From the NCBI GenBank assembly GCA_044354025.1, contig JBILAW010000001.1:1-57533 (forward strand): a DNA stretch of 57,533 bases, given 5' to 3'. Below the pieces are notes generated by a model that was not told the DNA's origin, searched no databases, and worked only from the letters and a program-made list of their open reading frames with translations. Position numbers and translations under genes: made by a program. The stretch comes from Sediminibacterium sp. Its GTDB lineage: Bacteria > Bacteroidota > Bacteroidia > Chitinophagales > Chitinophagaceae. This document shows positions 18,147 through 34,298 of the stretch, in pieces (the stretch's first letter is position 1; each line of letters opens with the position of its first letter).

Positions 18147-19076
18147 ATGAAATTAATAAGTGTTGTAACTCCGTGTTATAATGAAGAGGAAAACGTAGAG
18201 TCAGTTTATAAGCAAGTAAAACAAGTATTTATAAATTTACCTAACTATGAATATGAACACATCTTTATTGATAACTCCTCAACAGACAACACTGTAAAAA
18301 TACTCAAAGAAATAGCAAAAAAAGATCATCATTTAAAAATAATTATTAATATCAGAAATTTCGGTCATATTCGATCTCCATATCATGGTATACTTCAAAG
18401 TAATGGTGATGCTACAATTTTACTTGTTGCAGACTTGCAAGACCCTCCAATATTAATTAATGATTATATCAGTAAATGGGAACAAGGCTATGATATTGTT
18501 ATTGGAACAAAGGCAAAAAGCAAAGAAAATCAATTAATGTTTTTGATTAGAAAAATATTTTACAATACTATATCTAAAATATCTGAAACAGACCAAATTA
18601 AGAATTTTACCGGTTTTGGACTATACGATAAATCCTTTGTTGATATTTTGAAAACAATTGATGAACCCTATCCCTATTTTAGAGGATTAATCTCTGAACT
18701 AGGGTTTAATCGGGTAGAAATACCATATGAACAACCTAAACGCGAAAAAGGTAAAACGAACAATAATTTCTACACTCTTTATGATATAGCGATGTTAGGT
18801 TTTATTAACTATTCAAAATTGCCTCTAAGAATGGCAGCTTTTATAGGATTTGCTGTTTCTTTTTTAAGTATATTAACTGCAATTGGATATTTTATTGCAA
18901 AAATTATCTTTTGGAATACCTTCTCAATTGGAGTGGCACCACTTGTAGTTGGCTTTTTCTTTTTAGGAGGAATTCAATTATTCTTTTTGGGTATTATAGG
19001 TGAATATATTGGTGCAATTTTCACACAAGTCAAAAAAAGACCGCTTGTAGTTGAAAAAGAAAGAATCAATTTTTAA
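18147..19076 (+). CDS. GT2 bactoprenol glycosyltransferase (GtrB/ArnC-like)
   Basis: PCYNEEEN, RNFG, ADLQDPP, two C-terminal TM helices, GIIGEYIG..KKRP. Confidence 0.85.
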   Translation: MKLISVVTPCYNEEENVESVYKQVKQVFINLPNYEYEHIFIDNSSTDNTVKILKEIAKKDHHLKIIINIRNFGHIRSPYHGILQSNGDATILLVADLQDPPILINDYISKWEQGYDIVIGTKAKSKENQLMFLIRKIFYNTISKISETDQIKNFTGFGLYDKSFVDILKTIDEPYPYFRGLISELGFNRVEIPYEQPKREKGKTNNNFYTLYDIAMLGFINYSKLPLRMAAFIGFAVSFLSILTAIGYFIAKIIFWNTFSIGVAPLVVGFFFLGGIQLFFLGIIGEYIGAIFTQVKKRPLVVEKERINF

Positions 19077-19170: not shown

Positions 19171-20196
19171 ATGGAAAATTTACTTAACCTGAATCATAAA
19201 AGTATTCTTATTACTGGTGGAACAGGTTCGCTGGGGCAGGCGCTTACAGAAACAATTTTAAAACGATGGCCAAACGTTGAAAGATTAGTAATTTATTCAA
19301 GAGATGAGCAAAAACAGTTTATAATGGCTCAAAAGTATCCTGAGTCGAAATACCCTCAATTACGTTTCTTTATTGGAGATGTTAGAGACCATGATAGATT
19401 AAAAAGAGCATTTAAAGGAGTTGATTATGTAATTCATGCTGCTGCAATGAAACATGTTCATATAGCTGAATATAATCCAGATGAGTGTGTAAAAACAAAC
19501 ATTTTTGGAGCACAAAATGTCATTTCAAGTGCAATAGAATGTGGTGTACAAAGTGTTGTGGCTCTTTCAACTGATAAAGCATGTGCTCCAATCAATTTAT
19601 ATGGAGCTACCAAACTAGCATCAGACAAATTATTTGTAGCAGCAAATAGCTTAAAAGGAAAAAATTCAATTAAATTTTCTGTGGTGCGGTATGGAAATGT
19701 AATGGGTTCAAATGGATCAGTAATTCCCTTTTTTATTAATAAAAAAAAAGAAGGTGTAATTCCAATTACAGATTCCAATATGACTAGATTCAATATTTCA
19801 ATTATTGATGGAGTAGAATTAGTTTTACATGCTCTCGAAAATGCATGGGGAGGAGAAATATTTATACCAAAAATACCTTCTTATAGAATTTTAGATCTTG
19901 CAAAAGCAATAGCTCCTAATTGTAAAACTGAAATAATTGGAATCAGACCTGGAGAAAAAATACATGAAGAAATGATTACAACTTCTGACTCATTTAATAC
20001 TTATGAAATTGGAAATAATTATGTTATTTTACCATCAATTCCACAATGGAGTGTTAGCGAATTTTTAGAAAAAAACAACGCAAAAGCAGTACCTATTGGT
20101 TTTAAATATAATTCAGGTGAAAATACTGAATGGTTACAAATTGAAGAAATTAGAAATTTAATCATTAAACATATTGATCCTAAGTTTATTTTTTAA
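19171..20196 (+). CDS. pseB: UDP-N-acetylglucosamine 4,6-dehydratase (inverting)
   Basis: TGGTGS, SRDEQKQ, HAAAMKHV..AEYNP, STDKA..PINLYGATK, RPGEKIHE. Confidence 0.9.
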   Translation: MENLLNLNHKSILITGGTGSLGQALTETILKRWPNVERLVIYSRDEQKQFIMAQKYPESKYPQLRFFIGDVRDHDRLKRAFKGVDYVIHAAAMKHVHIAEYNPDECVKTNIFGAQNVISSAIECGVQSVVALSTDKACAPINLYGATKLASDKLFVAANSLKGKNSIKFSVVRYGNVMGSNGSVIPFFINKKKEGVIPITDSNMTRFNISIIDGVELVLHALENAWGGEIFIPKIPSYRILDLAKAIAPNCKTEIIGIRPGEKIHEEMITTSDSFNTYEIGNNYVILPSIPQWSVSEFLEKNNAKAVPIGFKYNSGENTEWLQIEEIRNLIIKHIDPKFIF

Positions 20197-20937
20197 ATGA
20201 ATCATATTGTCGCAATTATTCAAGCAAGAACAAGCTCTACTAGATTTCCAAACAAAGTATTTGCAGATTTATGTGGTAAACCTTTGATTTGGCACGTCTT
20301 CAATAGGATTCAATCATCAAGACTTATAGAATCTTTTGTTTTAGCAACTACAAATAATGAACTAGATAATAGTTTGGTTGATTGGGCTCATGAAAATAAT
20401 ATTTTATACTTTCGTGGAGATGAAAATAATGTATTGAAAAGATATTATGATACAGCTAAATATTATAAAGCAAATATAATTGTAAGAATTACATCAGATG
20501 ACCCATTTAAAGATGTTGATATAATTGATAATGTTGTTTCTTTATTAATTAATAATAAATTAGATTTTACTTATAACAATAAACCACCAACATTTCCAGA
20601 AGGAATGGATGTAGAGGCATTTACTTTTGACGCACTTGAGAAGGCATATCTTGAGTCCAATGATGATTTTGAGAAAGAGCATGTTACGCAATTTTTCCAC
20701 AGAAATATCAAATTATTTACAGTAGAAAATTTGATGTATAAAGAAAATCTTTCAAATTATAGATGGACTATAGATACTAAATTAGATTTTGAAATGACCA
20801 AATTAATTTATAATAAACTCTATAATGTCAATAAAATATTTAACATGAATGATATCCTTAATTTATTTGTAAATAATCCTGAAATACCACTTATGAATCA
20901 GTTTGTAGAAAGAAGTCAAATGTATAAACAACTTTAA
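20197..20937 (+). CDS. SpsF-type cytidylyltransferase (putative CMP-nonulosonate synthetase, copy 1)
   Basis: IIQARTSSTRFPNKV, RITSDDP, PEGMDVE, KEHVT, RWTIDT. Confidence 0.8.
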   Translation: MNHIVAIIQARTSSTRFPNKVFADLCGKPLIWHVFNRIQSSRLIESFVLATTNNELDNSLVDWAHENNILYFRGDENNVLKRYYDTAKYYKANIIVRITSDDPFKDVDIIDNVVSLLINNKLDFTYNNKPPTFPEGMDVEAFTFDALEKAYLESNDDFEKEHVTQFFHRNIKLFTVENLMYKENLSNYRWTIDTKLDFEMTKLIYNKLYNVNKIFNMNDILNLFVNNPEIPLMNQFVERSQMYKQL

Positions 20938-20950
20938 AAAATATCTTATT

Positions 20951-22129
20951 ATGAAAAGAATATCCGAATTAGAAAAAAAATATGCTATTCAAGCATTAGA
21001 TAATGAATTTAATACTTCTTCTAATAGTATTTTTAATTCAAAATTAGAAGGAGAATTTGCTAAATTATTTAATGTAGGATTTGCAATCGGTCATGTCAAT
21101 GGTACTGCAACTCTTCATACTGCACTTATAGCTTTAGGCGTTAAGACTGGAGACGAGGTAATAGTTCCACCATTAACAATGTCTAGTACTTCATTAGCAG
21201 TACTTCAAGCCGGTGCAATTCCAGTATTTGCAGATGTAGATGAATCTACTTTTAATATATGTCCTAAATCCATTAAAAAATGTGTAACTGAAAAAACAAA
21301 AGCGATAATTACTGTTGCTTTGTATGGACTTTCACCGGAGTATAATGAGATTTTAAAAATTTGTGAAGAATTTAAAATTGGATTAATTGAAGATAATGCG
21401 GAATGTTTCTTGAGTAAATATGATAATAAATATGTTGGAGAATTCGGTCATTTTGCAAGTTTTAGTTTTCAGGCTAGCAAACATTTGACTTGTGGCGAAG
21501 GAGGAATGTTGATAACAAATGATGTTAATTTAGCTAATAATGCAAGACGATTTAGTAGTTTAGGTTATGCTGGCGTTAGTGCCACTCAAGGAAAAATTAC
21601 AAGGGATGATATCCAAGATCCAAAGTATAGCAGACACATATCGATAGGGTTTAATTATAGAATGTCAGAATTATGTGCCGCTGTTGCTTTGGGGCAATTA
21701 GAAAGATCAACGGAATTAGTTAACATTAGAATTGAAGTTGCAAAATTATATAATGATGCAGTTAAAGATTTTTCAAATATTAGACTACAAAATAACCCAG
21801 CTAATTGTGTAAATACATATTGGGCTTATAGCTTTGCTTTATTGACTAAAAATCCAGATATAGATTGGTATAAATTTAGAGAATTATATAAGTCAAATGG
21901 CGGTGATGGTTTTTATGCTGCTTGGAAACTTTCATACTTTGAACCATTATTTCAAAATGAATTAAAATCTGCACCTGGAGTGTGGCAAAAATTAGAAGAA
22001 GGATTATGTCCAGTTGCTGAGTATCTACAACCAAGAATGGTACAACTGAAAACTAATTATTGGAATTTAGATGAAGCTAAAATCCAGTCAGAAATATTAC
22101 ATAAAACATTAAATATATATTTTAAATAG
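20951..22129 (+). CDS. DegT/DnrJ/EryC1/StrS PLP aminotransferase (PseC/LegC role by context)
   Basis: NGTATLH, IEDNAE, SFQASKHLTCGEGG (PLP Lys), GFNYRMSE. Confidence 0.85.
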   Translation: MKRISELEKKYAIQALDNEFNTSSNSIFNSKLEGEFAKLFNVGFAIGHVNGTATLHTALIALGVKTGDEVIVPPLTMSSTSLAVLQAGAIPVFADVDESTFNICPKSIKKCVTEKTKAIITVALYGLSPEYNEILKICEEFKIGLIEDNAECFLSKYDNKYVGEFGHFASFSFQASKHLTCGEGGMLITNDVNLANNARRFSSLGYAGVSATQGKITRDDIQDPKYSRHISIGFNYRMSELCAAVALGQLERSTELVNIRIEVAKLYNDAVKDFSNIRLQNNPANCVNTYWAYSFALLTKNPDIDWYKFRELYKSNGGDGFYAAWKLSYFEPLFQNELKSAPGVWQKLEEGLCPVAEYLQPRMVQLKTNYWNLDEAKIQSEILHKTLNIYFK

Positions 22130-22135
22130 TAAATC

Positions 22136-23203
22136 ATGAGAACAATCAAATTTTCAAAAGAAATTAATTTTGCAGAAAAAAAAGTAGGTAATGGATATCC
22201 ATCTTATATTATTGCTGAAATTGGTGCTAATTTTGATGGTAATTTAGAAAAGGCAAAAAAACTTTGTGATGCTGCAAAAGAAGCTGGTGCTGATTGTGCC
22301 AAATTTCAAAGTTTTATTTCGGAGAAAATAGTTTCTGCAAAAGGTTTTGCACAGATGAAATTAAAGGGTGTTCATGGTACATGGGGTAGACCTGTGAATG
22401 AAGTTTTTAAAGATGCAGAATTTCCAAGAGAATGGCATAGTATTGTTGCGCAACATTGTAAAGATATAGGGATTCATTTTTCTTCATCTCCATACGACTT
22501 TGAGGCAGTTGATTTAATTGATTCTTTAAATGTACCTTTCATTAAAATAGGTTCTGGCGAAATTACATGGTTAGAAATGATAGAGTATGTTGCAAAAAAG
22601 GGTAAGCCAGTAATATTAGCAACTGGAGATGCAAGTTTATCCGAAATTGACGAAGCAATTAAAGTAATTGAGAGTACTGGAAATACTAATTTAATATTAT
22701 TACAATGCATCACAAATTATCCATCAAAAATCGAAAGTGCAAACGTAAAAGTTGTTAAATCTTACCAAGAAACATTTGACGTTTTATCTGGCTGCTCTGA
22801 TCATGCTCCAACTGATATAGTCCCAATTGCCTCAACTGTTCTTGGCGGATGCGTAATTGAAAAACATTTTACATTAAACAAAAAAGATAATGGACCAGAT
22901 CATCCACATTCAATGGATGTTAATGAATTTAAAATTATGGTTGACAGGATTAGAAATGTTGAAGCTGCATTAGGCTCTACTAGAAAAGTAGTAGTTGAAG
23001 AAGAAGAAGAAACGGTGTATGTTCAAAGGAGAGGTCTTTATGCCAAACAAAACATAATAAAAGGCAAAATATTGGATTTAAATGACATTGAAGAACTTAG
23101 ACCGGCATTAGGAATTTTGCCAAAGTATAAAAAAGTTTTAGTAGGTAAGGAGGCAAAATTTGATATTGAAGCAGGAATGCCATTACATTGGAATCTCTTT
23201 TAG
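22136..23203 (+). CDS. NeuB/PseI-family nonulosonic acid synthase with C-terminal SAF domain
   Basis: YIIAEIGAN, AKFQ, KIGSGE, SDH, IEKHFTL..GPDH, RRGLYA. Confidence 0.92.
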   Translation: MRTIKFSKEINFAEKKVGNGYPSYIIAEIGANFDGNLEKAKKLCDAAKEAGADCAKFQSFISEKIVSAKGFAQMKLKGVHGTWGRPVNEVFKDAEFPREWHSIVAQHCKDIGIHFSSSPYDFEAVDLIDSLNVPFIKIGSGEITWLEMIEYVAKKGKPVILATGDASLSEIDEAIKVIESTGNTNLILLQCITNYPSKIESANVKVVKSYQETFDVLSGCSDHAPTDIVPIASTVLGGCVIEKHFTLNKKDNGPDHPHSMDVNEFKIMVDRIRNVEAALGSTRKVVVEEEEETVYVQRRGLYAKQNIIKGKILDLNDIEELRPALGILPKYKKVLVGKEAKFDIEAGMPLHWNLF

Positions 23204-23204
23204 C

Positions 23205-23795
23205 ATGACAAATAAGGAAATTTTTATCGTTTTATGTAGTAACGACACACTAAAGAAATCCGATGCTATTATTTTACTAGAAGGTGATGGTTATAACAGA
23301 GTTGAAAGGACTATAAAGTTGTTTAAGCAAGGTTGGGCACCAAAAATTGTAGTTTCTGGTGGTTATGACAATGAAACTAATGGTTCAATCAATGGAGATA
23401 AATTAATTCCAATTTTGTTAGAAAATGGAATTAAAAAAGAATGCATAATTTATGAAAAAAAATCTATGCATACAGATGAACAAGCTAATAATGTCATTGA
23501 TTTATGCATTAAATTTAACTGGAAAAAAATAATATTAGTTGCTTCAAATTATCACCAATATCGTGCTTATTTCACATTTTTCAGAAAGCTATCACTAAAA
23601 AATCTAGAAAAGTCAATTGAAATTATCAATGCACCTGCAGATAAATTAAGTTGGTTTATAGAAACTGGCTGGGGAATAAGGTATGATTTATTACAATTGG
23701 AATTTGAAAAAATAGAAAAGTATTTTAAAGAAGATTATCAATTATTTTATAATAAAATTTTAGATTATTTCAAATGGAAGAATTTGAAAGATTAG
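23205..23795 (+). CDS. YdcF/DUF218 family protein (soluble)
   Basis: DAIILLEG, IVVSGG, EKKSMHTDEQA, IILVASNYHQYRA; start probably ATG at 23205. Confidence 0.8.
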   Translation: MTNKEIFIVLCSNDTLKKSDAIILLEGDGYNRVERTIKLFKQGWAPKIVVSGGYDNETNGSINGDKLIPILLENGIKKECIIYEKKSMHTDEQANNVIDLCIKFNWKKIILVASNYHQYRAYFTFFRKLSLKNLEKSIEIINAPADKLSWFIETGWGIRYDLLQLEFEKIEKYFKEDYQLFYNKILDYFKWKNLKD

Positions 23796-24415
23796 TATTT
23801 GCTAAAAAAATACTTGAAAAAGATTTCATTGGATACGATGAATTGAAGAAAATTTCTAGTTATATTGATTTTGATTTAACTAACATTCCAAAATTATGCT
23901 TGGATGAAAACCAAATTATAAAGGCTAAAGAAGATAATAAAATTCTATTGTTAGTACATCCATTTTTAAAAAACAATATTAAATTGAGCATAAAATTTTT
24001 TAGGGATAAATTTGGTATTGGTTTAAACAATACTGAATATCCAACATTTTACAATCAAGATTGGTATTTAAAAGAGCCCTTTTTTTTAGAAGAATTTAAT
24101 GAATCTAAATGGATTTTGGTAGATAAAAACTTAAAAAATACAACCAGAGGAATTGTGCCTAAAAGTGAACACCAGCCAATATTAGGAAAGGCATTTCATT
24201 ATACCTATGCCTTTTTTATGTATTTCATAATAAATAATGGTGATTTACTTTGGGAAAATGACTATATATGGTGTAATGATGATGATCATAATGGTGATAT
24301 GATATATGTTGGAAGATATACAGATCCCCAAAGTTATAATAATAAAGGATTTAGTATTCATAGGCATTTGACTGTCTCAGCTATTTATGGTTGTGTTAAT
24401 TTTAATAGTTTGTAA
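23774..24415 (+). CDS. Hypothetical protein in the nonulosonate module
   Basis: 213-aa ORF overlapping the upstream gene; conserved-looking FYNQDWY and WCNDDDHNGDMIYVGRY..GFSIHRHL; family not recognised. Confidence 0.65.
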   Translation: MEEFERLVFAKKILEKDFIGYDELKKISSYIDFDLTNIPKLCLDENQIIKAKEDNKILLLVHPFLKNNIKLSIKFFRDKFGIGLNNTEYPTFYNQDWYLKEPFFLEEFNESKWILVDKNLKNTTRGIVPKSEHQPILGKAFHYTYAFFMYFIINNGDLLWENDYIWCNDDDHNGDMIYVGRYTDPQSYNNKGFSIHRHLTVSAIYGCVNFNSL

Positions 24416-24426
24416 ATAATAAATAA

Positions 24427-25557
24427 ATGAAAATGCAAAATTTTATAATTTGGAAAGAAAACGATAAGTATTGTTCTTTCCCACATATTTCTTATCTGTC
24501 TAACGGGAAACTTGCAGTCGTTTTTAGAAAAGCTAGTAAATTTAGTGCTGATGCTGCAAAATCTGGTGTAGCTACACATCATGATCCAGATTCTTCAATT
24601 GAAATGATAGTTTCTAATGATAATGGTTTGACTTGGGATCCTAATAGCCAAAGAACTATATATAAATCAAATTATGGGGTCAATGATCCTTCAATAACAG
24701 TTTTAAAAAATGGAACAATTTTAGTTAGGTTTGTAGCACTTGAAATTGTTAATAGTAAAGGCTGTATACATCCACCAGAGAAAATATTTTCACATAGAGT
24801 TGAACATGGTTTATTAACTTCAGTAGTTGGAAATATTATTATTAGTTCAATTGACAATGGTTTAACTTGGAATCAAATAGGAGTTACTGATTCTGAACAA
24901 ATTGGACCTTCTTGTAGTAGAGACCCTATTATTGAAATGCCGGATCAAACATTGTTAATGCCTGTTTACACTGGTGCTCCACAACGAAGTGATATATCAT
25001 GGGTTATTCGTTCTTTCAATGGAGGAACTACTTGGTGTTCTCCAATAAGAATAATGTCAGATGAAAATGGAAAGTTCTCTCAACTTCAGGGTATAAATTA
25101 TAACGAGACATCTTTATTGCACTTGGGTAATGGTGAAATTCTTGCAATGGTTAGAGCTGATGCAGATTTTCATACTGAAAATGAGTTTATGCCAGTTGGT
25201 GGTGTAGGAGATTTATGTACGGCCAGAAGTTATGACGGCGGCATGAGTTGGACATTTTCCAATAGAACTGGAATTTGGGGGCAACCAGGAAGCATTAGTA
25301 AGTTAAAAAATGGAAATCTTTTGTGTACGTATGGATATAGGAAAGCTCCATTTGGAGTACGTGCATGTGTTAGTTATGATAATGGTATGTCCTGGGATGT
25401 TAAAAATGAGTATATTTTGCGTGATGATTGTCCTACTTGGGATTGTGGATATCCATTTACTATAGAATTAGCAAATGGTGAATTATATACAGTTTATTAT
25501 TTTGTATGTGAGGAAGGTATTAGACATATTTGTGGCACTAAATGGAATCTATCATGA
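24427..25557 (+). CDS. BNR/Asp-box beta-propeller (sialidase-like) protein without signal peptide
   Basis: Five Asp-box motifs: SNDNGLTW, SIDNGLTW, SFNGGTTW, SYDGGMSW, SYDNGMSW; C-terminal DCGYP. Confidence 0.8.
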   Translation: MKMQNFIIWKENDKYCSFPHISYLSNGKLAVVFRKASKFSADAAKSGVATHHDPDSSIEMIVSNDNGLTWDPNSQRTIYKSNYGVNDPSITVLKNGTILVRFVALEIVNSKGCIHPPEKIFSHRVEHGLLTSVVGNIIISSIDNGLTWNQIGVTDSEQIGPSCSRDPIIEMPDQTLLMPVYTGAPQRSDISWVIRSFNGGTTWCSPIRIMSDENGKFSQLQGINYNETSLLHLGNGEILAMVRADADFHTENEFMPVGGVGDLCTARSYDGGMSWTFSNRTGIWGQPGSISKLKNGNLLCTYGYRKAPFGVRACVSYDNGMSWDVKNEYILRDDCPTWDCGYPFTIELANGELYTVYYFVCEEGIRHICGTKWNLS

Positions 25558-26426
25558 TAAAAATTGCATTTTTAGGTTCTGATAGTACTCATACTGAAGC
25601 ATTTGGAAGACTAATTAATTTTTCTAATTCTAAATTTTATAAATATGCAAGAGTTGTATCTATATATGGTGAAAATTTAGAAGAGACTAAGCGTAAAGCT
25701 AAAGAATTGAATATTTTAAAACATGCAATAAGTATTGAAGATGCTTTAGAAGGAGTAGATTTAGCTTTTGTAATTGGTAGATTTGGAGATAGTCATTATT
25801 TACCTACAAAGGCAGCATTATTAAAACATATACCAGTTTTTGTTGACAAGCCATTTACCTTAAGTGTCGAAGAATCCAAGGATTTAATCGCTTTGTCTAG
25901 TAAATTAATGGTTCCTATGTTTTCTAGTTCACCTTTGAGATTTTCAAAAGAAATTAATGTAATAAAAAAAATGTTATTAGATATTGGTAATGATTTAATT
26001 AATGTTTGTGTAAAAGTTCCTGCAAATTGCACCGATCTAGGTGATGACCCAAGATTAAATTCAGTTTATTTTTATGGTATACATGGAATTGAAATTTTAC
26101 TCGAAATAATCGGACATGAATTTAATAATATTACAATTGATAACAATAAAACATTTATTACAATCTGCTTGCATACTCCCAATGGAAATATTAATAAATT
26201 TGAATTAATAAGAAACGCTTCAGAATTTTACTGGGTTGAGATACACACTAAAAGGAGTAATTATTTTTACAATATTGAATTAGATGGTTCTTATTATGAA
26301 AATGAAATTGATTATATTTTAAAATGGAAAAACAATAATACAGAATTAATCCCTTTGACTAGTACACATAAATGCATATCAATCTTGAATGAAATTGAAT
26401 TAAGTGAAGTAAATTCTATTAAGTAA
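25542..26426 (+). CDS. Gfo/Idh/MocA family oxidoreductase (divergent, copy 1)
   Basis: KIAFLGSDSTH, VFVDKPF, FSSSPLRF, FYGIHGIE. Confidence 0.75.
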   Translation: MESIMIKIAFLGSDSTHTEAFGRLINFSNSKFYKYARVVSIYGENLEETKRKAKELNILKHAISIEDALEGVDLAFVIGRFGDSHYLPTKAALLKHIPVFVDKPFTLSVEESKDLIALSSKLMVPMFSSSPLRFSKEINVIKKMLLDIGNDLINVCVKVPANCTDLGDDPRLNSVYFYGIHGIEILLEIIGHEFNNITIDNNKTFITICLHTPNGNINKFELIRNASEFYWVEIHTKRSNYFYNIELDGSYYENEIDYILKWKNNNTELIPLTSTHKCISILNEIELSEVNSIK

Positions 26427-27430
26427 TGACTAAAATTAAAATTGGAATTATAGGTACGGGCATAATGGCTAACATTTATAGTAAAATTATTTCACAACGA
26501 ACTGATTGCGAATTAATTTGTGTTACAGGAAATTCCGAAATCAACAGTAAGAAATTTGGAAAAGAATTCGAAATAAAATTTTATTATAATTCTGAGTATG
26601 ATAAAATGATGGTAGAAAATCCAGATTTAAATGCAATTATAATTACAACTCCCGAATGGGTTAGAATAGAACCAGTTAAATCTGCTATTAAATATAAAAA
26701 ACATATCTTACTTGAAAAGCCATTTGCAAAGTCAAAAGAGGATGCGGAATATTTGTATAGTTTATTAAAAAACTATGATAAAGTTTTTGAAATTTGTCAT
26801 GTCTTAAGGTATAGTCCAAGATTTCAAGCACTAAAGTATTCCATTGATCAAGGAAAAATTGGTGAAATTCGACATATTTATGCAAGGAGAAATTCAAATA
26901 ATGTCAGAGTACAAAGAGTCTTGGGTAAAACCGATTTAGCTTATTGGCTGACCCCGCATGATATAGATATAATGAGATGGATAACAAAATCTGAAATAAT
27001 TGAAGTATATGCAATCTCAAGAAATCAGCTTAACTCTATTGATGATTATTTAACAGTTAATTTAAAATTTGAAAATAATGTTAATGCGTTACTACAAATT
27101 TCATGGTGTACTCCACCATTGAGTCCAACTGCAAGGGATACTGTTTTTGAGGTATGGGGGAATAAAGGGTATTTAGAAGTAGAAGATTATAATATGAATA
27201 TAAAGTTATTTTCTGAAAATAATAATGTTACTTCAATTGACACATATGAAGATTATCAAATTAATGGCATTCATAAGGGTTATTTTGAAAATCTAATTGA
27301 TAATTTCATTAGAAAGATAAAAAGCAATCAAAATTCGGAAAACTCTTTATTAGACGCATTAGAGTCAATAAGAATTTGTGATATGATATCAAATTCAATA
27401 AATAAGAATAGAATAGTTTCAAAAATTTAA
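26426..27430 (+). CDS. Gfo/Idh/MocA family oxidoreductase (copy 2)
   Basis: IGIIGTGIMA, LLEKPFA, HVLRYSP, PHDIDI. Confidence 0.88.
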   Translation: MTKIKIGIIGTGIMANIYSKIISQRTDCELICVTGNSEINSKKFGKEFEIKFYYNSEYDKMMVENPDLNAIIITTPEWVRIEPVKSAIKYKKHILLEKPFAKSKEDAEYLYSLLKNYDKVFEICHVLRYSPRFQALKYSIDQGKIGEIRHIYARRNSNNVRVQRVLGKTDLAYWLTPHDIDIMRWITKSEIIEVYAISRNQLNSIDDYLTVNLKFENNVNALLQISWCTPPLSPTARDTVFEVWGNKGYLEVEDYNMNIKLFSENNNVTSIDTYEDYQINGIHKGYFENLIDNFIRKIKSNQNSENSLLDALESIRICDMISNSINKNRIVSKI

Positions 27431-27431
27431 A

Positions 27432-28454
27432 TTGGATTTACAAGATTTAAAAAATAAAAAAATAATATTTGCTTCTAAAGAAGCAGGTGCCGGTTCTTTG
27501 TTAGGTGCTTTAGTAAAAACATTAGAACCTGTGAAAGGTAGTATAGCAATTGCATCTCCAGTTTCATTTAAATATTTTGAAAATACAGACCTAAATGTAT
27601 ATAATACTCAAGAAGTTAATTTGTCACAAATTAAAAAAATTATTCTCGATTTTGATCCACATTACATTATAGTTGGTTCATCTGCAGGCAGTTCAATTGA
27701 AAAAGACTTGATGATACTTGCTCAACAAATTGGGTATAAAGTAATTTCAGTTATTGATCATTTTTGGAATTTATGGCAAAGGTTTGCTAACGAAAATACT
27801 GCTGAGAAATGGTACTATAAACCAGATTATATTTTCGTACCTCATGATGCATGTGTCAATAAATTAATTGAACTTGGATGGGAGAGTGATAAAATTAATT
27901 CTTTTATTCATCCTCTATTTAACTCTAATAAACTTAACCAACAATTAATAAAGGAAGATATTTTTGTCGAACTTGAAATTAAAGAAAATTACAAAATAAT
28001 CACTTTTGCATCTGAATATAATTTTGACAAATCTGACATGTGGAATTGGGAACAATCAAGTGATAGCGACATAAAAGATTTATTATCTTATATAATACAT
28101 GAAATTGAAGACTTGAATTCCAAAACGGACAATAAATTATTTTTGCTTGTAAAGCTACATCCTTCACAAGACAACATTTTTGATAATATACTTAAAAATC
28201 ATACATTTTATAAAGTGGTAAAAGATTTTAGAAAAGATAAAATATTCAAAATATCTAGTATTGTTGTTGGCTTAAATTCAATGTTTTTATTAGAAGCATC
28301 GTCATTATCAGTCCCTACATATTCTTATACAGGACAACTGCCTTCTTCATCTATAAGGCTTAATATGATTGACCAAGACATTTCTACTTTTTCTAAATTA
28401 AATGATCTTGCAAATATTTTTAGATCACATTGTTTAAGTTTAATTCATGAATAA
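27432..28454 (+). CDS. Putative GT-B fold protein (nonulosonate transferase or nucleotide-sugar hydrolase-like)
   Basis: EAGAG, VIDHFWN, PDYIFV, VKLHP, VVGLNSMFLLEA resemble TagF/SpsB-like GT-B proteins; TTG start. Confidence 0.55.
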   Translation: MDLQDLKNKKIIFASKEAGAGSLLGALVKTLEPVKGSIAIASPVSFKYFENTDLNVYNTQEVNLSQIKKIILDFDPHYIIVGSSAGSSIEKDLMILAQQIGYKVISVIDHFWNLWQRFANENTAEKWYYKPDYIFVPHDACVNKLIELGWESDKINSFIHPLFNSNKLNQQLIKEDIFVELEIKENYKIITFASEYNFDKSDMWNWEQSSDSDIKDLLSYIIHEIEDLNSKTDNKLFLLVKLHPSQDNIFDNILKNHTFYKVVKDFRKDKIFKISSIVVGLNSMFLLEASSLSVPTYSYTGQLPSSSIRLNMIDQDISTFSKLNDLANIFRSHCLSLIHE

Positions 28455-29412
28455 GATTAAAGTTGTAATTATTGGTGCAGGTCAAATTGTATGTGGATAT
28501 GATTCAATTACTGACTCATCTATTTTAACTCATTGTCATGCAATAAAGAAACTACAGCAATTTGTGTTAATGGGTATTTTTGATGTAAATATTGAAGTTC
28601 TTGAAAGTGTTTCAAAAAAATGGAATGTAAAAACATTTAATGATTTCGATGTATTGATGAAAGAATCTCCTGATGTAGTTGTTATAGCTGTAAATAATTC
28701 ATTTCATGAATATTATTTAGAAAAACTATTACAATATAACTTAAAATTGGTTCTATGTGAGAAACCTTTAACAATTGATAGTGAAAGCGGAAAAAAAATC
28801 ATAGAATTATATAAAAATAGTACAACAAATTTAGCAGTTTGCTATCAAAGAAGGTATGACGATGATATAAACTTAATTAGAGACGATTTTGAATCAGGAA
28901 ATTTAGGCAACTTTATTAATGGAGTTGTAATTTATTCAAAAGGAATTTTACATAATGGTTCACATGCTATCGATATATTAAGATATATTTTTGGTGAAGT
29001 AAAAATAGCAACTTCCTTCGATTATAAAATTGATTATTCAATAGAGGATCCAACTGTTTCAGCTTTTTTGCAATTTAATGATGCTAGAGTTACATTAGTT
29101 TCATCAAATGAAAAATTCCATAGTTTATTTGAAATAGATTTAATTTTTGAAAAAGGAAGATATCGTTTATATGATTCGGGATTCAAAATAGATATTTATA
29201 ATGTAATTGAAGATCCAGTTTTTAAAGGTTATTCTTCTTTAAACTTAGTTGATTCCCGTAATTCTACTTTAAACTATGCTTTATTAAATCTATGGAAAGG
29301 AGTTTCTGATTTTATAAATAATAATATTCCTTTAAAAAGTAATGGTGAAGATGCATTAAATACACAAAATACTTGTTTGAAGATTAAAAAATTAATAATA
29401 AATAAACAATGA
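28447..29412 (+). CDS. Gfo/Idh/MocA family oxidoreductase (copy 3)
   Basis: IIGAGQI, LCEKPL, YQRRYD, KGILHNGSHAID. Confidence 0.88.
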   Translation: MNKIKVVIIGAGQIVCGYDSITDSSILTHCHAIKKLQQFVLMGIFDVNIEVLESVSKKWNVKTFNDFDVLMKESPDVVVIAVNNSFHEYYLEKLLQYNLKLVLCEKPLTIDSESGKKIIELYKNSTTNLAVCYQRRYDDDINLIRDDFESGNLGNFINGVVIYSKGILHNGSHAIDILRYIFGEVKIATSFDYKIDYSIEDPTVSAFLQFNDARVTLVSSNEKFHSLFEIDLIFEKGRYRLYDSGFKIDIYNVIEDPVFKGYSSLNLVDSRNSTLNYALLNLWKGVSDFINNNIPLKSNGEDALNTQNTCLKIKKLIINKQ

Positions 29413-30320
29413 AAGTTTTAGGAATTATAGTAGCTAGAGCTGGTTCAACACGAGTTCCGGGTAAATCATTATTAAAAATTAAAGAAGAACCAGTATTAAA
29501 ATATATAATTGATATCTCTAAAAATATTATTGGACTTAATGAAATTTGTTTATCTACTACAGATTTAACAAGCGATAATGAATTAGCTAATATCGCTAAA
29601 AATGAAAATATCAGTATTTACAGGGGAGACGCCGAAAATGTGTTAGACAGAATTTATAAAAATGCAAAACTTTTTAAAGCTGATGTTATAGTATATATTG
29701 GAGGCGATTGTCCTTTGTTAGATCCTGTTATTGTAAGTGAAGCATTAAGTTGTTTTTTAAAATTGAAATGTGATTATTTAAACAACTATGATAATCCTAC
29801 ACTTCCAGGAGGCTACGATATAAATATTATTTCATTTAAAGCATTAGAAAATGCTTTTTTAAATGCAATTGCGCCATCACAAAGAATACATGCATTTAGT
29901 TATCTTACTTTCCATCCACACTTGTTTAATATACAACAATTTCAATTTGACACACACTTTGTAAGTAATAAAAAAGATATATCTACATTTCATTGGTCTT
30001 TGGATTATCCAGAAGATGTTGATTTCATAAAAGCAGTTTATGAAAAATGTTATGTAAAAGGTGAAATTATGACTTTTGAAAAAATAATGAATTTAATAGA
30101 GAATGATGTTTTTTTAAATGATTTTAATAATCAACTTGTCAAACCTAAGGTGACTCATGCTTTTTTTTCTTCGCTTAGCATAATGAATGATTTAATTAAT
30201 GATATATCATTTTTACACAACAAGATAAAGAACGAAATAAATCACAAAAATGATTTTAAAGTAATAAATCTTCTTTGTAATGAAATATATTTCATTACAA
30301 AGAAGATGACAAATAGATAA
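29409..30320 (+). CDS. SpsF-type cytidylyltransferase (copy 2) with C-terminal extension
   Basis: IIVARAGSTRVPGKS, GDCPLLDP, PGGYD, WSLDYPED. Confidence 0.8.
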   Translation: MKVLGIIVARAGSTRVPGKSLLKIKEEPVLKYIIDISKNIIGLNEICLSTTDLTSDNELANIAKNENISIYRGDAENVLDRIYKNAKLFKADVIVYIGGDCPLLDPVIVSEALSCFLKLKCDYLNNYDNPTLPGGYDINIISFKALENAFLNAIAPSQRIHAFSYLTFHPHLFNIQQFQFDTHFVSNKKDISTFHWSLDYPEDVDFIKAVYEKCYVKGEIMTFEKIMNLIENDVFLNDFNNQLVKPKVTHAFFSSLSIMNDLINDISFLHNKIKNEINHKNDFKVINLLCNEIYFITKKMTNR

Positions 30321-30324
30321 TTAT

Positions 30325-31851
30325 ATGTACTCAAATAAGTATCTTAAAATATATTTTTGGAAAATTTTAAGACTCATTATAGGAACCCTCTCTTTTCTTA
30401 TTGTGATTCCAAAAATTAGTACTGATAAAAATATCTACGGAATTTATTCATTCTGCATTTCTTTGACTATCTTTTTTCAATATGCCGATATTGGCTTTTT
30501 AGATGCAGGTCAGAAATTTGCTTCTGATTTTAATTCTCAAAAAGATTTAAAAAATGAAATTAAAATTTTCTCTTTTATATATTTTATTATGTTAATAGGT
30601 GTTATAGTTTTTTCTTTGTGTCTTTTAGCTATAATTATAAATCCTAATTATTTTTTAAATAATATAACTAGTGATAATGTGCATCTTTTAAGATCACTTT
30701 TGATAATTTTAATAATTTTTGCGCCTACCGTCATTTTACAAAGATTTTGCCAATCAGTTTTTTCCATTAGAATTGAAGATAATATATATCATTCCATTGA
30801 CCTTTTTTTTAATATTTTAAAGATATTATCAGTTTTTTATTTTTTTCATGCAAATAAAAATGACTTATTGTCATATTTTTTATTCATTCAATTAATGAAT
30901 TTATTTTCTGCATTTACTTGTCTGTATATAATTCAAAAAAAATATTTATATGATTTCAAATTTCTTATTAAATCATTTAAATTTTCAAGAGAAACTTATA
31001 ATAAAGTAAAATATCTCTCTTTCAGTTCATTTATTGGAACTATTTGTTGGGCATTGTTTTTTTATACTGATAATTTTTTAATCGCTAGATTAACTTCGGT
31101 ATCAAATATGGCGACATTTTCTATTGGAATTTCTATAATTACATTACTAATTGGGTTAATAAATACAATTTTTGCTCCTTTTCTTTTTAGGTTTAACGAA
31201 TTGATTGTCAATAATGATTTAAATAATTTCTATAAAATATTTAATCATATTACTAAAACTCTTTTACCAATTATAATAATACCATTAGTTACTTTAATTT
31301 TTTTTACCGATAAAATTATTATAAGTTGGCTTGGAATAGAATATTATGATTCTATAATAATCACGAAAACTTTAGTTAGTTCTTTGATTTGGTTTTCGAT
31401 TTCCGTTCCATTCAACTATATCCTTATTTCAAAACAAAGAATCAAAAATATTTATACTGCCTCCATAATATTACCATTTTTATACTTTTTAATTATATTT
31501 GTATTTTTTAAAAATGAAAATATTATATATTTTTCATATTCAAAATCAATTTCATTGTTAGTCTACGCAGTGTATGTAATTTATTCTTGTAAATTCTTTT
31601 TAGATTACCATTTTTATACTAATCTACTTAAAAGGCTAGGAAAATTATTTTTTTTTATTCTATTTGTTACTACTTTATATTTTTACTTTCAAAATAAAAT
31701 CCCAATAGTTATAAGTAAAGATAGGTCATATTTATTTGCATTAATTTCATCAATCTTCATATTAAATCTAACACTAATTTCATTCTATATTATAAGTGAC
31801 AAATCTAGTAGGCAACTTTTTCTATTAATTATCAGAAATTTTAGAAAATAA
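30325..31851 (+). CDS. wzx: Wzx flippase
   Basis: About 12-14 TM helices, YGIY and ADIG motifs, position in the cluster. Confidence 0.8.
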   Translation: MYSNKYLKIYFWKILRLIIGTLSFLIVIPKISTDKNIYGIYSFCISLTIFFQYADIGFLDAGQKFASDFNSQKDLKNEIKIFSFIYFIMLIGVIVFSLCLLAIIINPNYFLNNITSDNVHLLRSLLIILIIFAPTVILQRFCQSVFSIRIEDNIYHSIDLFFNILKILSVFYFFHANKNDLLSYFLFIQLMNLFSAFTCLYIIQKKYLYDFKFLIKSFKFSRETYNKVKYLSFSSFIGTICWALFFYTDNFLIARLTSVSNMATFSIGISIITLLIGLINTIFAPFLFRFNELIVNNDLNNFYKIFNHITKTLLPIIIIPLVTLIFFTDKIIISWLGIEYYDSIIITKTLVSSLIWFSISVPFNYILISKQRIKNIYTASIILPFLYFLIIFVFFKNENIIYFSYSKSISLLVYAVYVIYSCKFFLDYHFYTNLLKRLGKLFFFILFVTTLYFYFQNKIPIVISKDRSYLFALISSIFILNLTLISFYIISDKSSRQLFLLIIRNFRK

Positions 31852-31857
31852 ACTTTT

Positions 31858-33171
31858 ATGGTAATCGAAGAGATTATAGAATTATATATTAATGGGCTTT
31901 CGTTATATAAAATACAACGCAAAAATGAAGATAAAATTTTAATTTATCTAAGGTATTGGCTTTCTTATTTTGAATATATTTATATAAATGACAAAGAACT
32001 AAGTAATAAAATTATTTCAAATAATATTGCTCTTTATCAAATAAAATATAATAAAACATATAATAAAGAAAATCTATTATATCATTTTATTTTCAAATTG
32101 TTAAAAATAGTTTCTCCTATCAAATATTTTAAAATAGGAATACTTCCTGGAGGTAGATCCTCTAAAATTTTATCTAAACTCTCACATATATTTCTTAAAG
32201 CTGAACTAAGAAATTTTAATTTTGTGATTAATAAAGAATTCAAATCATTTTTTATAAACAATCTTGAAAATATTTTAATACAAAATGAGTTACAATATTT
32301 GATTAAACTTATACCTGATATTTTATTTTCTAATACTATTCTGAATAATTCAAATGTATTGCCAAGTATTTATAGAGGATCGCCAGCTTGTTTAATGAGT
32401 GATAATTATTTATATTTGAGTATTTTATTTTCTAACAAAACAATATCATTAATTGGAATTCAACATGGTGGAGGGTATTCAGAATGGAAAAATAGAACTT
32501 CCGAAAAAATGGAAAAAGACATTTCCAATTTGTTTTATAGTTGGTCTTTTAATCCACCTTTAATAAATCAGAATCGTTTTAAAATTAATTATAAATCTAA
32601 AAAAAATCATATTATTTGGATTGGACGTGAAATAACACTTTGGAATAATACTAATAATTTTTATGATGACGCAGAAGATCACTTTAAAAAATATAATCAT
32701 GTTAATTTATTCTTAAATAAATTAATTAATTATGGTATATATTTTTTACCTCACCCAAATAATAAAATTCATGATTATAATAATTTATTTAAAAATTGTC
32801 TAAATATTACTAAGAATAACGAATTTTTTATACAAAATTCTAAATTAGTAATTTTTGACTGCTTAAGTCATACTTTATTGTATCGGTGCCTGCACTCAAA
32901 AATACCATTTATTATTTTGCTTTCTGAAATGCCTAAATTTGATTTGTCGAATAATTCATTAAATTTTTACCAATTTTTAAAAAATAATAATTTACTTTTT
33001 GAAATGAAAGATGTAATCTTAAATGATGATAATTTTATAAAGAAAGTTGAAAGAATACTTCTTGGTAAAGAATTTAAATTAGATAAAGATTTAGAAAATG
33101 TCATCTTGTCTTTTTTTTTAAATCAAGATATCACAAATGTAACTGCTAATTATAGCGATTATAATTATTAA
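31858..33171 (+). CDS. Hypothetical protein, probable nonulosonate glycosyltransferase
   Basis: IGIQHGGGY, LPHP and LVIFD motifs; directly after wzx; extremely AT-rich. Confidence 0.5.
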   Translation: MVIEEIIELYINGLSLYKIQRKNEDKILIYLRYWLSYFEYIYINDKELSNKIISNNIALYQIKYNKTYNKENLLYHFIFKLLKIVSPIKYFKIGILPGGRSSKILSKLSHIFLKAELRNFNFVINKEFKSFFINNLENILIQNELQYLIKLIPDILFSNTILNNSNVLPSIYRGSPACLMSDNYLYLSILFSNKTISLIGIQHGGGYSEWKNRTSEKMEKDISNLFYSWSFNPPLINQNRFKINYKSKKNHIIWIGREITLWNNTNNFYDDAEDHFKKYNHVNLFLNKLINYGIYFLPHPNNKIHDYNNLFKNCLNITKNNEFFIQNSKLVIFDCLSHTLLYRCLHSKIPFIILLSEMPKFDLSNNSLNFYQFLKNNNLLFEMKDVILNDDNFIKKVERILLGKEFKLDKDLENVILSFFLNQDITNVTANYSDYNY

Positions 33172-33188: not shown

Positions 33189-34298
33189 ATGATTAAATTT
33201 TTAGATCTTAAGAAAATTAATGACACTTATAATTCTGAAATGAATATTGCTATCAAAAAAGTAATTGATAGTGGTTGGTATTTACTTGGCAATGAAGTCA
33301 AGAATTTTGAAAAAGAATATTCTGATTTTATTGGAACCAATTATTGTGTTGGGGTTGGCAATGGTTTAGATGCATTAAGAATTATATTTAGAGCTTTTAT
33401 TGAATTAGGTAATCTTAAGGTTGGAGACGAAATTTTCGTGCCTGCCAATACTTATATTGCTTCAGTATTAGCTATAACAGAAAATAATTTAGTGCCAGTC
33501 TTTATAGAACCTGAAATTGATACCTATAATATTGATTATACCTGTTTAGAAGATAAAGTCAATAAAAATACAAAAGCTATAATGCTAGTTCATTTATATG
33601 GGCAAAATTCTATGAATGAAAATATAATTAATTTTGCAAAAAAACATAATTTATTAGTAGTTGAAGATAATGCACAAGCAGCAGGATGCATGTTTAATAA
33701 AATGAGAACAGGTAGTATTTCTGATGCAGCTGGTCATAGCTTCTATCCTGGAAAAAATCTTGGAGCATTAGGTGATGCAGGTGCAATAACTACTAATAAT
33801 AAATTGTTAGAACAAACAATCAGGGCAATTGCAAACTATGGTTCAATTGTTAAATATAAAAATATTTATAAGGGAATTAATTCTAGATTAGATGAAATAC
33901 AGGCTTCTATTTTGAGGGTTAAACTTAAGTTTTTAGATAAAGATAATAATATAAGATCTGAAATTGCTAATAGATATTTAACTCAAATCAATAATCCTTT
34001 AATCAAATTACCCATAAAAAAGGAAATAGACGAATCTAGTCATGTTTGGCACTTGTTTGTAATTAGGACAAAATTTCGTCAAGAATTAATTGATTATTTA
34101 AAAGAAAATAATGTTGAGACTTTAATACATTATCCAATCCCTATACATAAACAACTTGCTTACCTTGAATTTTCAAATTTAGAACTACCAATTACTGAAT
34201 TAATTCATAACGAAGTTTTAAGTTTGCCAATTAGTCCAATTTTGACCTCAACTGAAATTGATGAAGTTATTTCAATTATCAATAATTTCAAAATTTAA
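33189..34298 (+). CDS. fdtB: dTDP-3-amino-3,6-dideoxyhexose transaminase (FdtB/QdtB-like DegT family)
   Basis: [44 protein letters not shown]. Confidence 0.8.

What the first reader, a model, noticed from the sequence alone, without database searches (positions are those of the whole stretch)
19171..33171. Non-canonical nonulosonic-acid module, candidate pathway for an undescribed sugar
Seen: a tightly coupled run of pseB, SpsF-type cytidylyltransferase, aminotransferase, NeuB-type synthase, DUF218, an orphan, an Asp-box protein, two Gfo/Idh/MocA enzymes, a GT-B-like protein, a third Gfo/Idh/MocA, a second cytidylyltransferase, wzx and a QHGG protein. Established: the Pse pathway needs PseH (acyltransferase) and PseG (hydrolase), and the Leg pathway needs a NeuC-type hydrolysing epimerase. 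I recognise none of these here. Inference: the missing steps are performed by non-homologous proteins. Three oxidoreductases and two activating enzymes suggest redox epimerisation or synthesis of a second activated substituent, giving a new nonulosonate isomer or derivative. This is the strongest candidate in the window for a new biosynthetic system.
Basis: partly seen in the sequence, partly recalled or inferred. Interest (0 to 1): 0.72.

Follow-up and report, generated by a model that had tools for sequence, protein, structure and literature searches.

The report
Six-gene nonulosonate pathway with DUF218 hydrolase
This bacterium carries a widely shared six-gene set predicted to make a sialic-acid-like surface sugar; it lacks two textbook enzymes and likely uses a soluble DUF218 protein, always paired with an unstudied partner, to cut the sugar off UDP, likely giving an amino-sugar acid not yet described.

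Summary
The genes are real and coupled. No pseG, pseH or neuC was found in this 84%-complete genome, and 27432-28454 is not PseG; it looks like a CMP-sugar transferase. The conserved unit is not the 14 kb block. It is six genes: pseB, SpsF-type cytidylyltransferase, aminotransferase, synthase, DUF218 and an orphan with a probable FGE/C-type-lectin fold. DUF218 lies beside the orphan in 72 of 73 informative loci; 0 of 92 loci have PseG. The unit recurs in several phyla and on viral contigs, and the two proteins are sometimes fused. A 2026 preprint shows DUF218 enzymes hydrolyse sugar-1-diphosphate bonds. This soluble member keeps the catalytic Thr/His/Arg, so it likely replaces PseG. The aminotransferase sits next to the cytidylyltransferase (46 of 56), never next to pseB, suggesting the PseB ketone is carried through and aminated late, which would remove the need for PseH. 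The three Gfo/Idh/MocA enzymes are accessory. The sister synthase clade lacks both PseG and this DUF218, which weakens the case. No chemistry exists. The scan proposed DUF218-for-PseG before on other DNA (three notes); I found it in no paper.

The parts
19171..20196 (+). PseB, inverting UDP-GlcNAc 4,6-dehydratase (core 1)
   Evidence: TIGR03589 over cut-off; present in 29 of 31 wide loci
20197..20937 (+). SpsF-type cytidylyltransferase CT1 (core 2)
   Evidence: PF02348; an SpsF-type CT is present in 31 of 31 wide loci
20951..22129 (+). Cassette-specific DegT-type PLP aminotransferase (core 3); other loci have a class III aminotransferase instead
   Evidence: Below PseC and LegC cut-offs; 18 DegT and 11 class III among 31 wide loci, never both; next to CT in 46 of 56, next to pseB in 0 of 56
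22136..23203 (+). Nonulosonate synthase of a separate clade outside PseI (core 4)
   Evidence: trees; residues shared with PseI/LegI-type synthases listed
23205..23795 (+). Soluble DUF218 (Upr-like) protein, predicted UDP-sugar hydrolase replacing PseG (core 5)
   Evidence: PF02698; T90/H117/R120 align with SanA T125/H149/R152; E166 invariant in 60 of 60; no hydrophobic anchor; family chemistry from the preprint
23774..24415 (+). Orphan with probable FGE/C-type-lectin fold, obligate partner of DUF218 (core 6)
   Evidence: 1,906 homologues, no Pfam family among the 120 listed; model pLDDT 92; FGE/CLec-type chains fill the top rows, best Z 7.4; fused to DUF218 in 5 proteins
24427..25557 (+). BNR/Asp-box (sialidase-like) protein; accessory
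   Evidence: close homologues only in L021 and L022; PDB relative is uncharacterised Dfer_1899
25542..26426 (+). Gfo/Idh/MocA oxidoreductase 1; accessory
   Evidence: found only in L021 and L022 and 0 of 300 other genomes
26426..27430 (+). Gfo/Idh/MocA oxidoreductase 2; accessory
27432..28454 (+). GT-B protein, likely CMP-nonulosonate transferase; not PseG
   Evidence: Top Foldseek hit is a polysialyltransferase; Atlas neighbours are CDP-glycerol-transferase-like and polysialyltransferase-like clusters; invariant HP motif; no PseG profile hit
28447..29412 (+). Gfo/Idh/MocA oxidoreductase 3, of a recurring tailoring module (CT + Gfo + DegT + GNAT + GT)
   Evidence: 27-39% identical to Gfo proteins of that module in L011, L012, L033, L043, L058, L075 and L139
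29409..30320 (+). Second SpsF-type cytidylyltransferase CT2; accessory
   Evidence: PF02348; groups apart from CT1
30325..31851 (+). Wzx flippase
   Evidence: PF01943; replaced by an ABC-type protein in L021
31858..33171 (+). QHGG protein, possible second transferase
   Evidence: TIGR04331 E 5e-13, below cut-off; homologue only in L022

Best explanation
Six genes (19171-24415) form a conserved cassette that likely makes a CMP-activated amino-nonulosonic acid without PseG or PseH: PseB is predicted to give the UDP-4-keto-6-deoxy sugar, the soluble DUF218 protein likely hydrolyses off UDP, the synthase likely adds PEP, and the cytidylyltransferase-aminotransferase pair likely activates the acid and aminates the carried-over ketone late. 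The orphan, always coupled and sometimes fused to DUF218, likely handles the unstable free keto sugar, by binding it or by shifting its carbonyl. The amine would end at C7 without a shift or at C8 with one. N-acylation is left to variable genes or omitted; this locus has no acyltransferase in the cassette. The block 24427-30320 is accessory redox tailoring with its own cytidylyltransferase and transferase. The product would go into a Wzx/Wzy surface polysaccharide. Shown: gene content, conservation, absences, catalytic-residue match, solubility, fusion, phylogeny. Inferred: every reaction. Odds by step: DUF218 is the hydrolase about 0.7; late amination about 0.55; the orphan acts catalytically on the keto intermediate about 0.4.
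For: Linkage: DUF218 lies within 1.6 kb of the orphan in 72 of 73 loci with room, and the synthase in 53 of 54; PseG in 0 of 92. Anchored on the synthase instead, 10 of 12 loci at 56-68% identity have the pair and the other 2 end at the synthase. In one 401-genome sample the orphan and high-scoring DUF218 (202-288 bits, next best 95) mark the same 3 genomes. No PseG over cut-off in 17 of 17 genomes, including two near-complete ones that also lack PseH. The six genes occur in order on two viral contigs. Chemistry: UprA hydrolyses the sugar-1-diphosphate bond with 18O entering the sugar and needs T125/H149/R152/E182 (10.64898/2026.10.14.759067). The cassette protein keeps T (59 T, 1 S), H and R in 60 of 60 and has no membrane anchor. 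Fusion of DUF218 and orphan. Late amination: the aminotransferase is next to CT in 46 of 56 and next to pseB in 0 of 56, whereas control PseC is next to pseB in 12 of 13. The class III enzymes of cassette loci are intermixed with those of loci that already have PseG plus an aldo-keto reductase, two of them with PseC too (L070 with L134, support 99). Control class III genes have an oxidoreductase within 2 kb in 7 of 7; cassette aminotransferases in 0 of 43. L084 has an SDR and L045 a CT-dehydrogenase fusion instead of an aminotransferase. CT + aldo-keto reductase + SDR converts Pse to its C8 epimer (PMC12053666).
Against: The sister synthase clade (5 loci with an RmlD-like reductase) also lacks PseG, and 4 of 5 such genomes have no match to the cassette DUF218 profile. 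So UDP release can occur there by an unknown route, and DUF218 may do something else. Upr enzymes were tested only on undecaprenyl-linked substrates and are periplasmic; the cytoplasmic E. coli member YdcF has no known function. MAFFT did not place E166 on SanA E182, and the hhalign matches ended before it. The window's aminotransferase is DegT-type, a family that mostly acts on NDP-keto sugars (general knowledge), and its PDB relatives include both NDP-sugar and free-substrate enzymes. The late-amination tree evidence concerns the class III alternative, not this enzyme. Acetyltransferases occur somewhere in 14 of 31 wide loci, and one cassette genome has a PseH over cut-off elsewhere (G404). 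The genome is 84% complete. The loci are not independent: they are the best 80 of 490, with near-duplicates. Neighbour labels come from my own small profiles.
Confidence: 0.5

Rival explanations
1. Canonical order with replacements: the aminotransferase acts on the UDP-4-keto sugar like PseC, the orphan (or a variable gene) supplies or bypasses N-acylation, DUF218 replaces PseG, and the product is a 5,7-diamino nonulosonate of Pse or fusaminic configuration.
For: Two steps are missing and two conserved unknown genes are present. DegT family membership. The synthase clade lies beside PseI. A 5,7-diamino L-gluco acid is known from Fusobacterium (PMC12940168 passage).
Against: The aminotransferase is never next to pseB (0 of 56) and is interchangeable with class III enzymes, an SDR or a dehydrogenase fusion. 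The orphan's model matched no acyltransferase among the listed rows. A free 4-amino aldose would tend to cyclise (general chemistry).
Confidence: 0.27
2. DUF218 is not the PseG stand-in. It is a quality-control or release hydrolase (for lipid-linked units or excess nucleotide sugar), and UDP release happens as in the sister clade, by a housekeeping enzyme, the orphan, or spontaneous loss from the keto sugar.
For: The sister clade has neither PseG nor this DUF218. The known family substrates are lipid-linked.
Against: The gene tracks the synthase, not the flippases or transferases, which vary freely. It has no membrane anchor. It is kept on viral contigs within the six-gene unit.
Confidence: 0.13
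3. One reading: the three Gfo/Idh/MocA enzymes, the Asp-box protein or 27432-28454 perform the missing hydrolysis and acylation steps.
For: Tight coupling in this operon. 27432 has a GT-B fold also shared with NeuC-type epimerases.
Against: Gfo1, Gfo2, the Asp-box protein and 27432 have close homologues only in L021 and L022, while dozens of cassette loci lack them.
Confidence: 0.05
4. Ordinary Pse5Ac7Ac, with pseG and pseH in the unassembled part of the genome.
For: The genome is 84% complete, and PseB is canonical.
Against: The synthase, aminotransferase and cytidylyltransferase all fall below Pse-family cut-offs, and the synthase is outside the PseI clade. Near-complete genomes G315 and G385 carry the cassette with neither gene over cut-off.
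Confidence: 0.05

Closest known systems
CMP-pseudaminic acid pathway PseB-C-H-G-I-F (reference locus L155)
   Same: Inverting PseB, a PLP aminotransferase, a NeuB-family synthase in the neighbouring clade, a cytidylyltransferase.
   Different: No PseG or PseH; the aminotransferase is not PseC and sits by the cytidylyltransferase; the synthase is a separate clade; the cytidylyltransferase is SpsF-type; DUF218 and the orphan are added.
Upr/DUF218 hydrolases UprA (SanA), UprB (ElyC), UprC (bioRxiv 10.64898/2026.10.14.759067; abstract, passages, section 5 part 1 of 2 and section 9 read)
   Same: DUF218 domain with Thr, His and Arg aligned; the proposed bond is also a sugar-1-diphosphate.
   Different: The known enzymes are membrane-anchored, periplasmic and act on undecaprenyl-linked glycans. 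This one lacks an anchor, has an obligate partner, and is proposed to act on a UDP-sugar.
EpaA/EpaB 8-epi-pseudaminic acid module (PMC12053666; passages read) and Aci modules (PMC5595891; passages read)
   Same: An extra cytidylyltransferase with oxidoreductases that rework the side chain; the likely model for CT2 + Gfo3 and for CT + aminotransferase pairs.
   Different: No aldo-keto reductase in any of 31 wide cassette loci, and no aldo-keto reductase or EpaB-like SDR in this locus; the ketone source must differ.
Bacillus subtilis Sps legionaminic acid pathway (PMC7439481; passages read)
   Same: UDP-linked route and SpsF-type cytidylyltransferase.
   Different: It has an acetyltransferase (SpsD) and SpsG (taken as the PseG-type hydrolase from recall); both kinds are absent here.
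8-amino ulosonic acids: Kdo8N and the 5,7,8-triamino acid of Flexibacter maritimus (PMC3210612; passages read)
   Same: Precedent that C8 of an ulosonic acid can be aminated; the Kdo8N transaminase is among the PDB relatives of the aminotransferase.
   Different: The Flexibacter acid keeps N at C7. A 7-hydroxy-8-amino acid made without an oxidase was not found in my searches.
Fusaminic acid type (L-gluco) nonulosonates of Fusobacterium (PMC7371886, PMC12940168; passages read)
   Same: The sister clade (pseB, RmlD-like reductase, synthase, CT) would give a 7-hydroxy acid; its link to Fusobacterium is recalled, not tested.
   Different: No Fusobacterium sequence was fetched; the C4 configuration made by this synthase is unknown.

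Membership tests
Pseudaminic acid pathway | PseB inverting dehydratase | tested here: met
   TIGR03589 507 bits, cut-off 408
Pseudaminic acid pathway | PseC aminotransferase | tested here: not met
   188 bits against cut-off 423.5
Pseudaminic acid pathway | PseH N-acyltransferase | tested here: not met
   None in the locus; none over cut-off in the 84%-complete genome
Pseudaminic acid pathway | PseG UDP-sugar hydrolase | tested here: not met
   0 of 92 related loci; genome incomplete
Pseudaminic acid pathway | PseI-clade synthase | tested here: not met
   308 bits against 340; outside the PseG-linked clade
Pseudaminic acid pathway | PseF cytidylyltransferase | tested here: not met
   32 and 27 bits against 206
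Pseudaminic acid pathway | Product is L-glycero-L-manno 5,7-diacylamido acid | not testable with these tools
   Needs NMR
Legionaminic acid pathway | LegB, LegC and NeuC/LegG hydrolysing epimerase | tested here: not met
   LegB 71/475, LegC 216/420; no PF02350
Upr/DUF218 hydrolases | DUF218 domain | tested here: met
   PF02698 62.5 bits, cut-off 27.6
Upr/DUF218 hydrolases | Catalytic Thr, His, Arg | tested here: met
   T90/H117/R120 align with SanA T125/H149/R152
Upr/DUF218 hydrolases | Catalytic Glu (SanA E182) | tested here: inconclusive
   E166 is invariant in 60 of 60 but alignments did not place it on E182; no model of this protein was made
Upr/DUF218 hydrolases | Membrane-anchored periplasmic location | tested here: not met
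   Maximum 19-residue hydropathy 1.06 (family 0.53-1.55) against 2.93 for SanA and 2.45 for ElyC
Upr/DUF218 hydrolases | Hydrolysis of a sugar-1-diphosphate bond | not testable with these tools
   Needs an assay
PseG (for 27432-28454) | Match to PseG profiles | tested here: not met
   No TIGR03590 hit; no hit at E 10 to a profile that finds 18 control PseG proteins
PseG (for 27432-28454) | GT-B fold closest to PseG | tested here: inconclusive
   GT-B fold; listed rows are a polysialyltransferase, epimerases and other GTs at similar scores
FGE / C-type-lectin fold (orphan) | Fold | tested here: inconclusive
   Best Z 7.4, rmsd 3.2 over 128 residues (EgtB); PvdO, SenA, SUMF2 and CalU17 tied; all under Z 8; Foldseek weak
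EpaA/EpaB C8-epimerisation module | CT + aldo-keto reductase + SDR | tested here: not met
   No aldo-keto reductase or SDR of that kind in the locus; Gfo3 + CT2 may work alike

The most novel reading that the evidence does not exclude
DUF218 and the orphan form a two-step unit. DUF218 releases the 4-keto sugar from UDP, and the orphan, an FGE/C-type-lectin-fold ketol isomerase, shifts the carbonyl one carbon along. The synthase then makes a 7-hydroxy-8-oxo nonulosonate that CT and the aminotransferase turn into a CMP-5-acetamido-8-amino-3,5,8,9-tetradeoxy-nonulosonic acid. This would be a new nonulosonate class, made by a redox-neutral route and spread across bacteria, some archaea and viruses.
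Probability: 0.22. Interest if true: 0.82.

Novelty: new variant of a known kind. Interest (0 to 1): 0.66.

Why it matters
It would define a further route to bacterial sialic-acid-like sugars that annotation pipelines miss because PseG and PseH are absent. It would give a first nucleotide-sugar substrate to a soluble branch of the newly characterised DUF218 hydrolases, and a function to an unannotated family of about 1,900 sequence clusters. Six small soluble enzymes and UDP-GlcNAc make it directly testable, and the product may be a nonulosonic acid not yet described.

Tried and rejected
27432-28454 as PseG: rejected. PseG is not among the listed rows of either fold search, which alone does not exclude it. 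Gfo enzymes or the Asp-box protein as core replacements: rejected on distribution. Complex prediction of DUF218 with the orphan gave no verdict (score 0.00) and is no evidence either way. Foldseek on the orphan gave nothing at E 0.001. The ESM Atlas found only unnamed clusters for it. FastTree on all 112 synthases grouped the 61 cassette synthases with low local support (0.234), though cassette plus sister clade had 1.0. The IQ-TREE run (99) used 16 of those 61 and dropped 6 long-branch rows. No orphan homologue in plasmids. PDB searches of Gfo2, Gfo3 and the BNR protein gave no functionally informative close relative. Literature searches with no paper: 'nonulosonic acid' + 'YdcF', 'DUF218' + 'pseudaminic', nonulosonic synthase clade + Patescibacteria. 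Listings showed no title describing this cassette. Subscription papers are not covered. The preprint's extended data, including its clade 3 and 4 alignments, were not seen and may bear on the Glu and on whether soluble members were noticed.

Full report
Observation. The 14 ORFs from 19171 to 33171 are present, co-oriented and nearly abutting, inside a larger Wzx/Wzy polysaccharide locus. The host is probably a Bacteroidota bacterium; this is inferred from the closest named homologues. PseB passes its cut-off; the aminotransferase, synthase and both cytidylyltransferases fall below the Pse, Leg and Neu cut-offs. The genome (84% complete) shows no PseG, no PseH over cut-off, no UDP-GlcNAc 2-epimerase and one synthase. 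Two other contigs repeat the order from pseB to CT2.

27432-28454 is not PseG. A profile built from control loci recovers 18 PseG proteins (2 are its seeds) and does not hit it. Its model (pLDDT 88) is GT-B, with a polysialyltransferase as best Foldseek match and UDP-GlcNAc 2-epimerases close behind; the second aligner gave many GT-B proteins at similar Z. Its Atlas neighbours are clusters in which 13-33% of members carry CDP-glycerol-transferase or polysialyltransferase families, and it keeps an HP motif (its link to CMP-sugar transferases is recalled). I read it as a CMP-nonulosonate transferase.

The conserved unit is six genes. Searching genomes with the synthase gave 12 loci at 56-68% identity: 10 have DUF218 and the orphan downstream and 2 end at the synthase. 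Searching metagenomes with the orphan gave 490 confirmed stretches, of which the best 80 were kept. Over these 80 and 12 genome loci, DUF218 lies within 1.6 kb in 72 of 73 loci with room and the synthase in 53 of 54; the exception, L040, has both further upstream. In 31 wide loci, pseB occurs in 29, an SpsF-type cytidylyltransferase in 31 and an aminotransferase in 29 (18 DegT-type, 11 class III, never both). A GNAT occurs in 4, any acetyltransferase in 14, an aldo-keto reductase in 0. PseG occurs in 0 of 92. These loci include near-duplicates, so the counts describe and do not test. In one sample of 401 genomes the orphan and the high-scoring DUF218 subfamily mark the same 3. No PseG passes the cut-off in 17 genomes (13 cassette, 4 sister clade); PseH passes in 1 of 13, away from the cassette. 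Named carriers include Bacteroidota, Ignavibacteriaceae, Anaerovibrio, Lachnospiraceae, Erysipelotrichaceae and CPR genomes. The six genes stand in the same order on two nearly identical viral contigs. The Asp-box protein, Gfo1, Gfo2 and 27432 have close homologues only in L021 and L022.

DUF218 as the PseG stand-in. A preprint (10.64898/2026.10.14.759067; abstract, passages, section 5 part 1 of 2 and section 9 read) shows that E. coli DUF218 proteins hydrolyse the sugar-1-diphosphate bond of lipid-linked glycans. Water attacks the sugar carbon, and T125, H149, R152 and E182 are required. PseG cuts the same kind of bond in a UDP-sugar (recalled; a reference title names it a UDP-sugar hydrolase). 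The cassette protein aligns T90, H117 and R120 on those residues. They are kept in 60 of 60 homologues (one Thr to Ser), as is E166, which alignments did not place on E182. None of the 60 has a membrane segment. Against this: the sister synthase clade has neither PseG nor this DUF218, and no DUF218 has been tested on a nucleotide sugar in what I read.

The orphan. It has 1,906 homologous clusters at 90% identity, with no Pfam family among the 120 listed, and 74 representatives at E 1e-30. Its confident model matches FGE/C-type-lectin-fold chains, best Z 7.4, which is suggestive and not decisive. Its gene usually overlaps the DUF218 stop by about 21 nt. Five proteins fuse the two; one cluster member is named as a Nanoarchaeia protein. 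Q95, D96, D175, Y178, Y182, H196 and R197 are kept in 47-48 of 48 close representatives. The first five are kept in only 5-12 of 37 distant ones, and the last two lie in a segment that did not align in the distant ones. That pattern suggests a dedicated binding or active site.

The synthase. The cassette synthases form one clade (99), sister to five synthases linked to RmlD-like reductases (joint support 100); both lie beside the PseG-linked PseI clade (96). This tree used 16 of 61 cassette rows and dropped 6 long rows; FastTree on all 112 rows gave the same grouping with low local support for the cassette clade alone. The two sister clades share residues that differ from PseI. The RmlD-like proteins keep their YxxxK motif, so that clade likely makes a 7-hydroxy acid. 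Both clades may therefore take substrates without a 4-N-acyl group (inference).

Late amination. The aminotransferase is next to or fused with the cytidylyltransferase in 46 of 56 cassette cases and next to pseB in 0 of 56; control PseC is next to pseB in 12 of 13. Class III enzymes of cassette loci are intermixed with those of control loci that have PseG and an aldo-keto reductase, two of which also have PseC. In those controls the enzyme must aminate another ketone. By analogy with EpaA (CT + aldo-keto reductase) and EpaB (SDR), which turn Pse into its C8 epimer (PMC12053666 passages), that ketone is likely at C8. An 8-amino nonulosonate is known from Flexibacter maritimus (PMC3210612 passages). 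Control class III genes have an oxidoreductase within 2 kb in 7 of 7, cassette aminotransferases in 0 of 43, so the simplest ketone source is PseB. L084 has an SDR, L045 a CT-dehydrogenase fusion and L058 a CT-GNAT fusion, which fits late handling of the ketone and late acylation. The weak point is that the window's enzyme is the DegT alternative, whose relatives are not diagnostic.

Accessory block. Gfo3, CT2 and 27432 resemble part of a module (CT, Gfo, DegT, GNAT, GT, often an N-acetyl-sugar amidotransferase) found beside cassette, PseG and sister-clade synthases alike. Here the DegT and GNAT are absent and Gfo1, Gfo2 and the Asp-box protein stand upstream. Oxidation and re-reduction of the acid, or a second activated sugar for the second transferase-like gene (31858), are both possible; I cannot choose.

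Novelty. It works like a pseudaminic acid pathway but fails membership on PseC, PseH, PseG, PseI and PseF. My searches found no paper on the cassette. Three earlier notes of this scan proposed DUF218 for a missing step on other genomes and a fourth described the same uncharacterised pathway. They are unchecked and came after my own reading. A word search found no note on the late-amination or isomerase reading. Verdict: a real, widespread, new variant of nonulosonate biosynthesis with a testable new enzyme assignment; interest 0.66.

Noticed in passing
window 12278-18090: CDP-sugar module: glucose-1-phosphate cytidylyltransferase, CDP-glucose 4,6-dehydratase, an epimerase/reductase, a TPP enzyme and RfbH; looks like a yersiniose-type branched-sugar pathway (label recalled).
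   Followed up: partly
window 8400-9799 and 33189-34298: An FdtA-like cupin, a similar neighbour, a hexapeptide acetyltransferase and a distant DegT aminotransferase: probable dTDP-3-acylamino-3,6-dideoxyhexose genes split across the locus.
   Followed up: partly
window 18147-19076 and 39070-40662: A GT2 of the PgfS/ArnC kind and a 530-aa membrane protein with no family: possible lipid-carrier side-chain glycosylation pair.
   Followed up: no
window 42140-42875 (-): A second, membrane-anchored ElyC-type DUF218 gene whose frame ends early; an apparent frameshift near its 3' end. Pseudogene or assembly error.
   Followed up: partly
L013-L016, L149: Sister synthase clade: pseB, RmlD-like reductase, synthase and CT, with no PseG and no cassette DUF218. 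How UDP is released there is unexplained.
   Followed up: partly
L163, L164 (3483-8600): Large viral contigs (194 and 88 kb) carry the whole six-gene cassette among other sugar genes.
   Followed up: partly
L005, L038, L040, L050, L055, L082, L084: An unannotated protein of about 108 aa travels with the cassette in some loci (one is a named CPR genome), sometimes between DUF218 and the orphan.
   Followed up: no
L011, L012, L016, L031, L043, L058, L075, L139: Recurring module of SpsF-type CT, Gfo, DegT, GNAT and GT, often with an N-acetyl-sugar amidotransferase, beside three different synthase clades; product unknown.
   Followed up: partly
L118, L134, L139, L141: Canonical Pse or Leg loci with oxidoreductase + SpsF-type CT + class III aminotransferase: candidate genes for 8-amino nonulosonates such as that of Flexibacter maritimus.
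   Followed up: partly
L033, L097: Cassette loci that carry a second, unrelated synthase set.
   Followed up: no
L135: A PseI-clade synthase with pseB, pseC, CT and two GNATs but no PseG in the fetched stretch.
   Followed up: no
window 43577-44389 (-): A metacaspase-like ORF (His-Gly and Asp-Ser-Cys motifs, recognised from memory) downstream of the locus.
   Followed up: no
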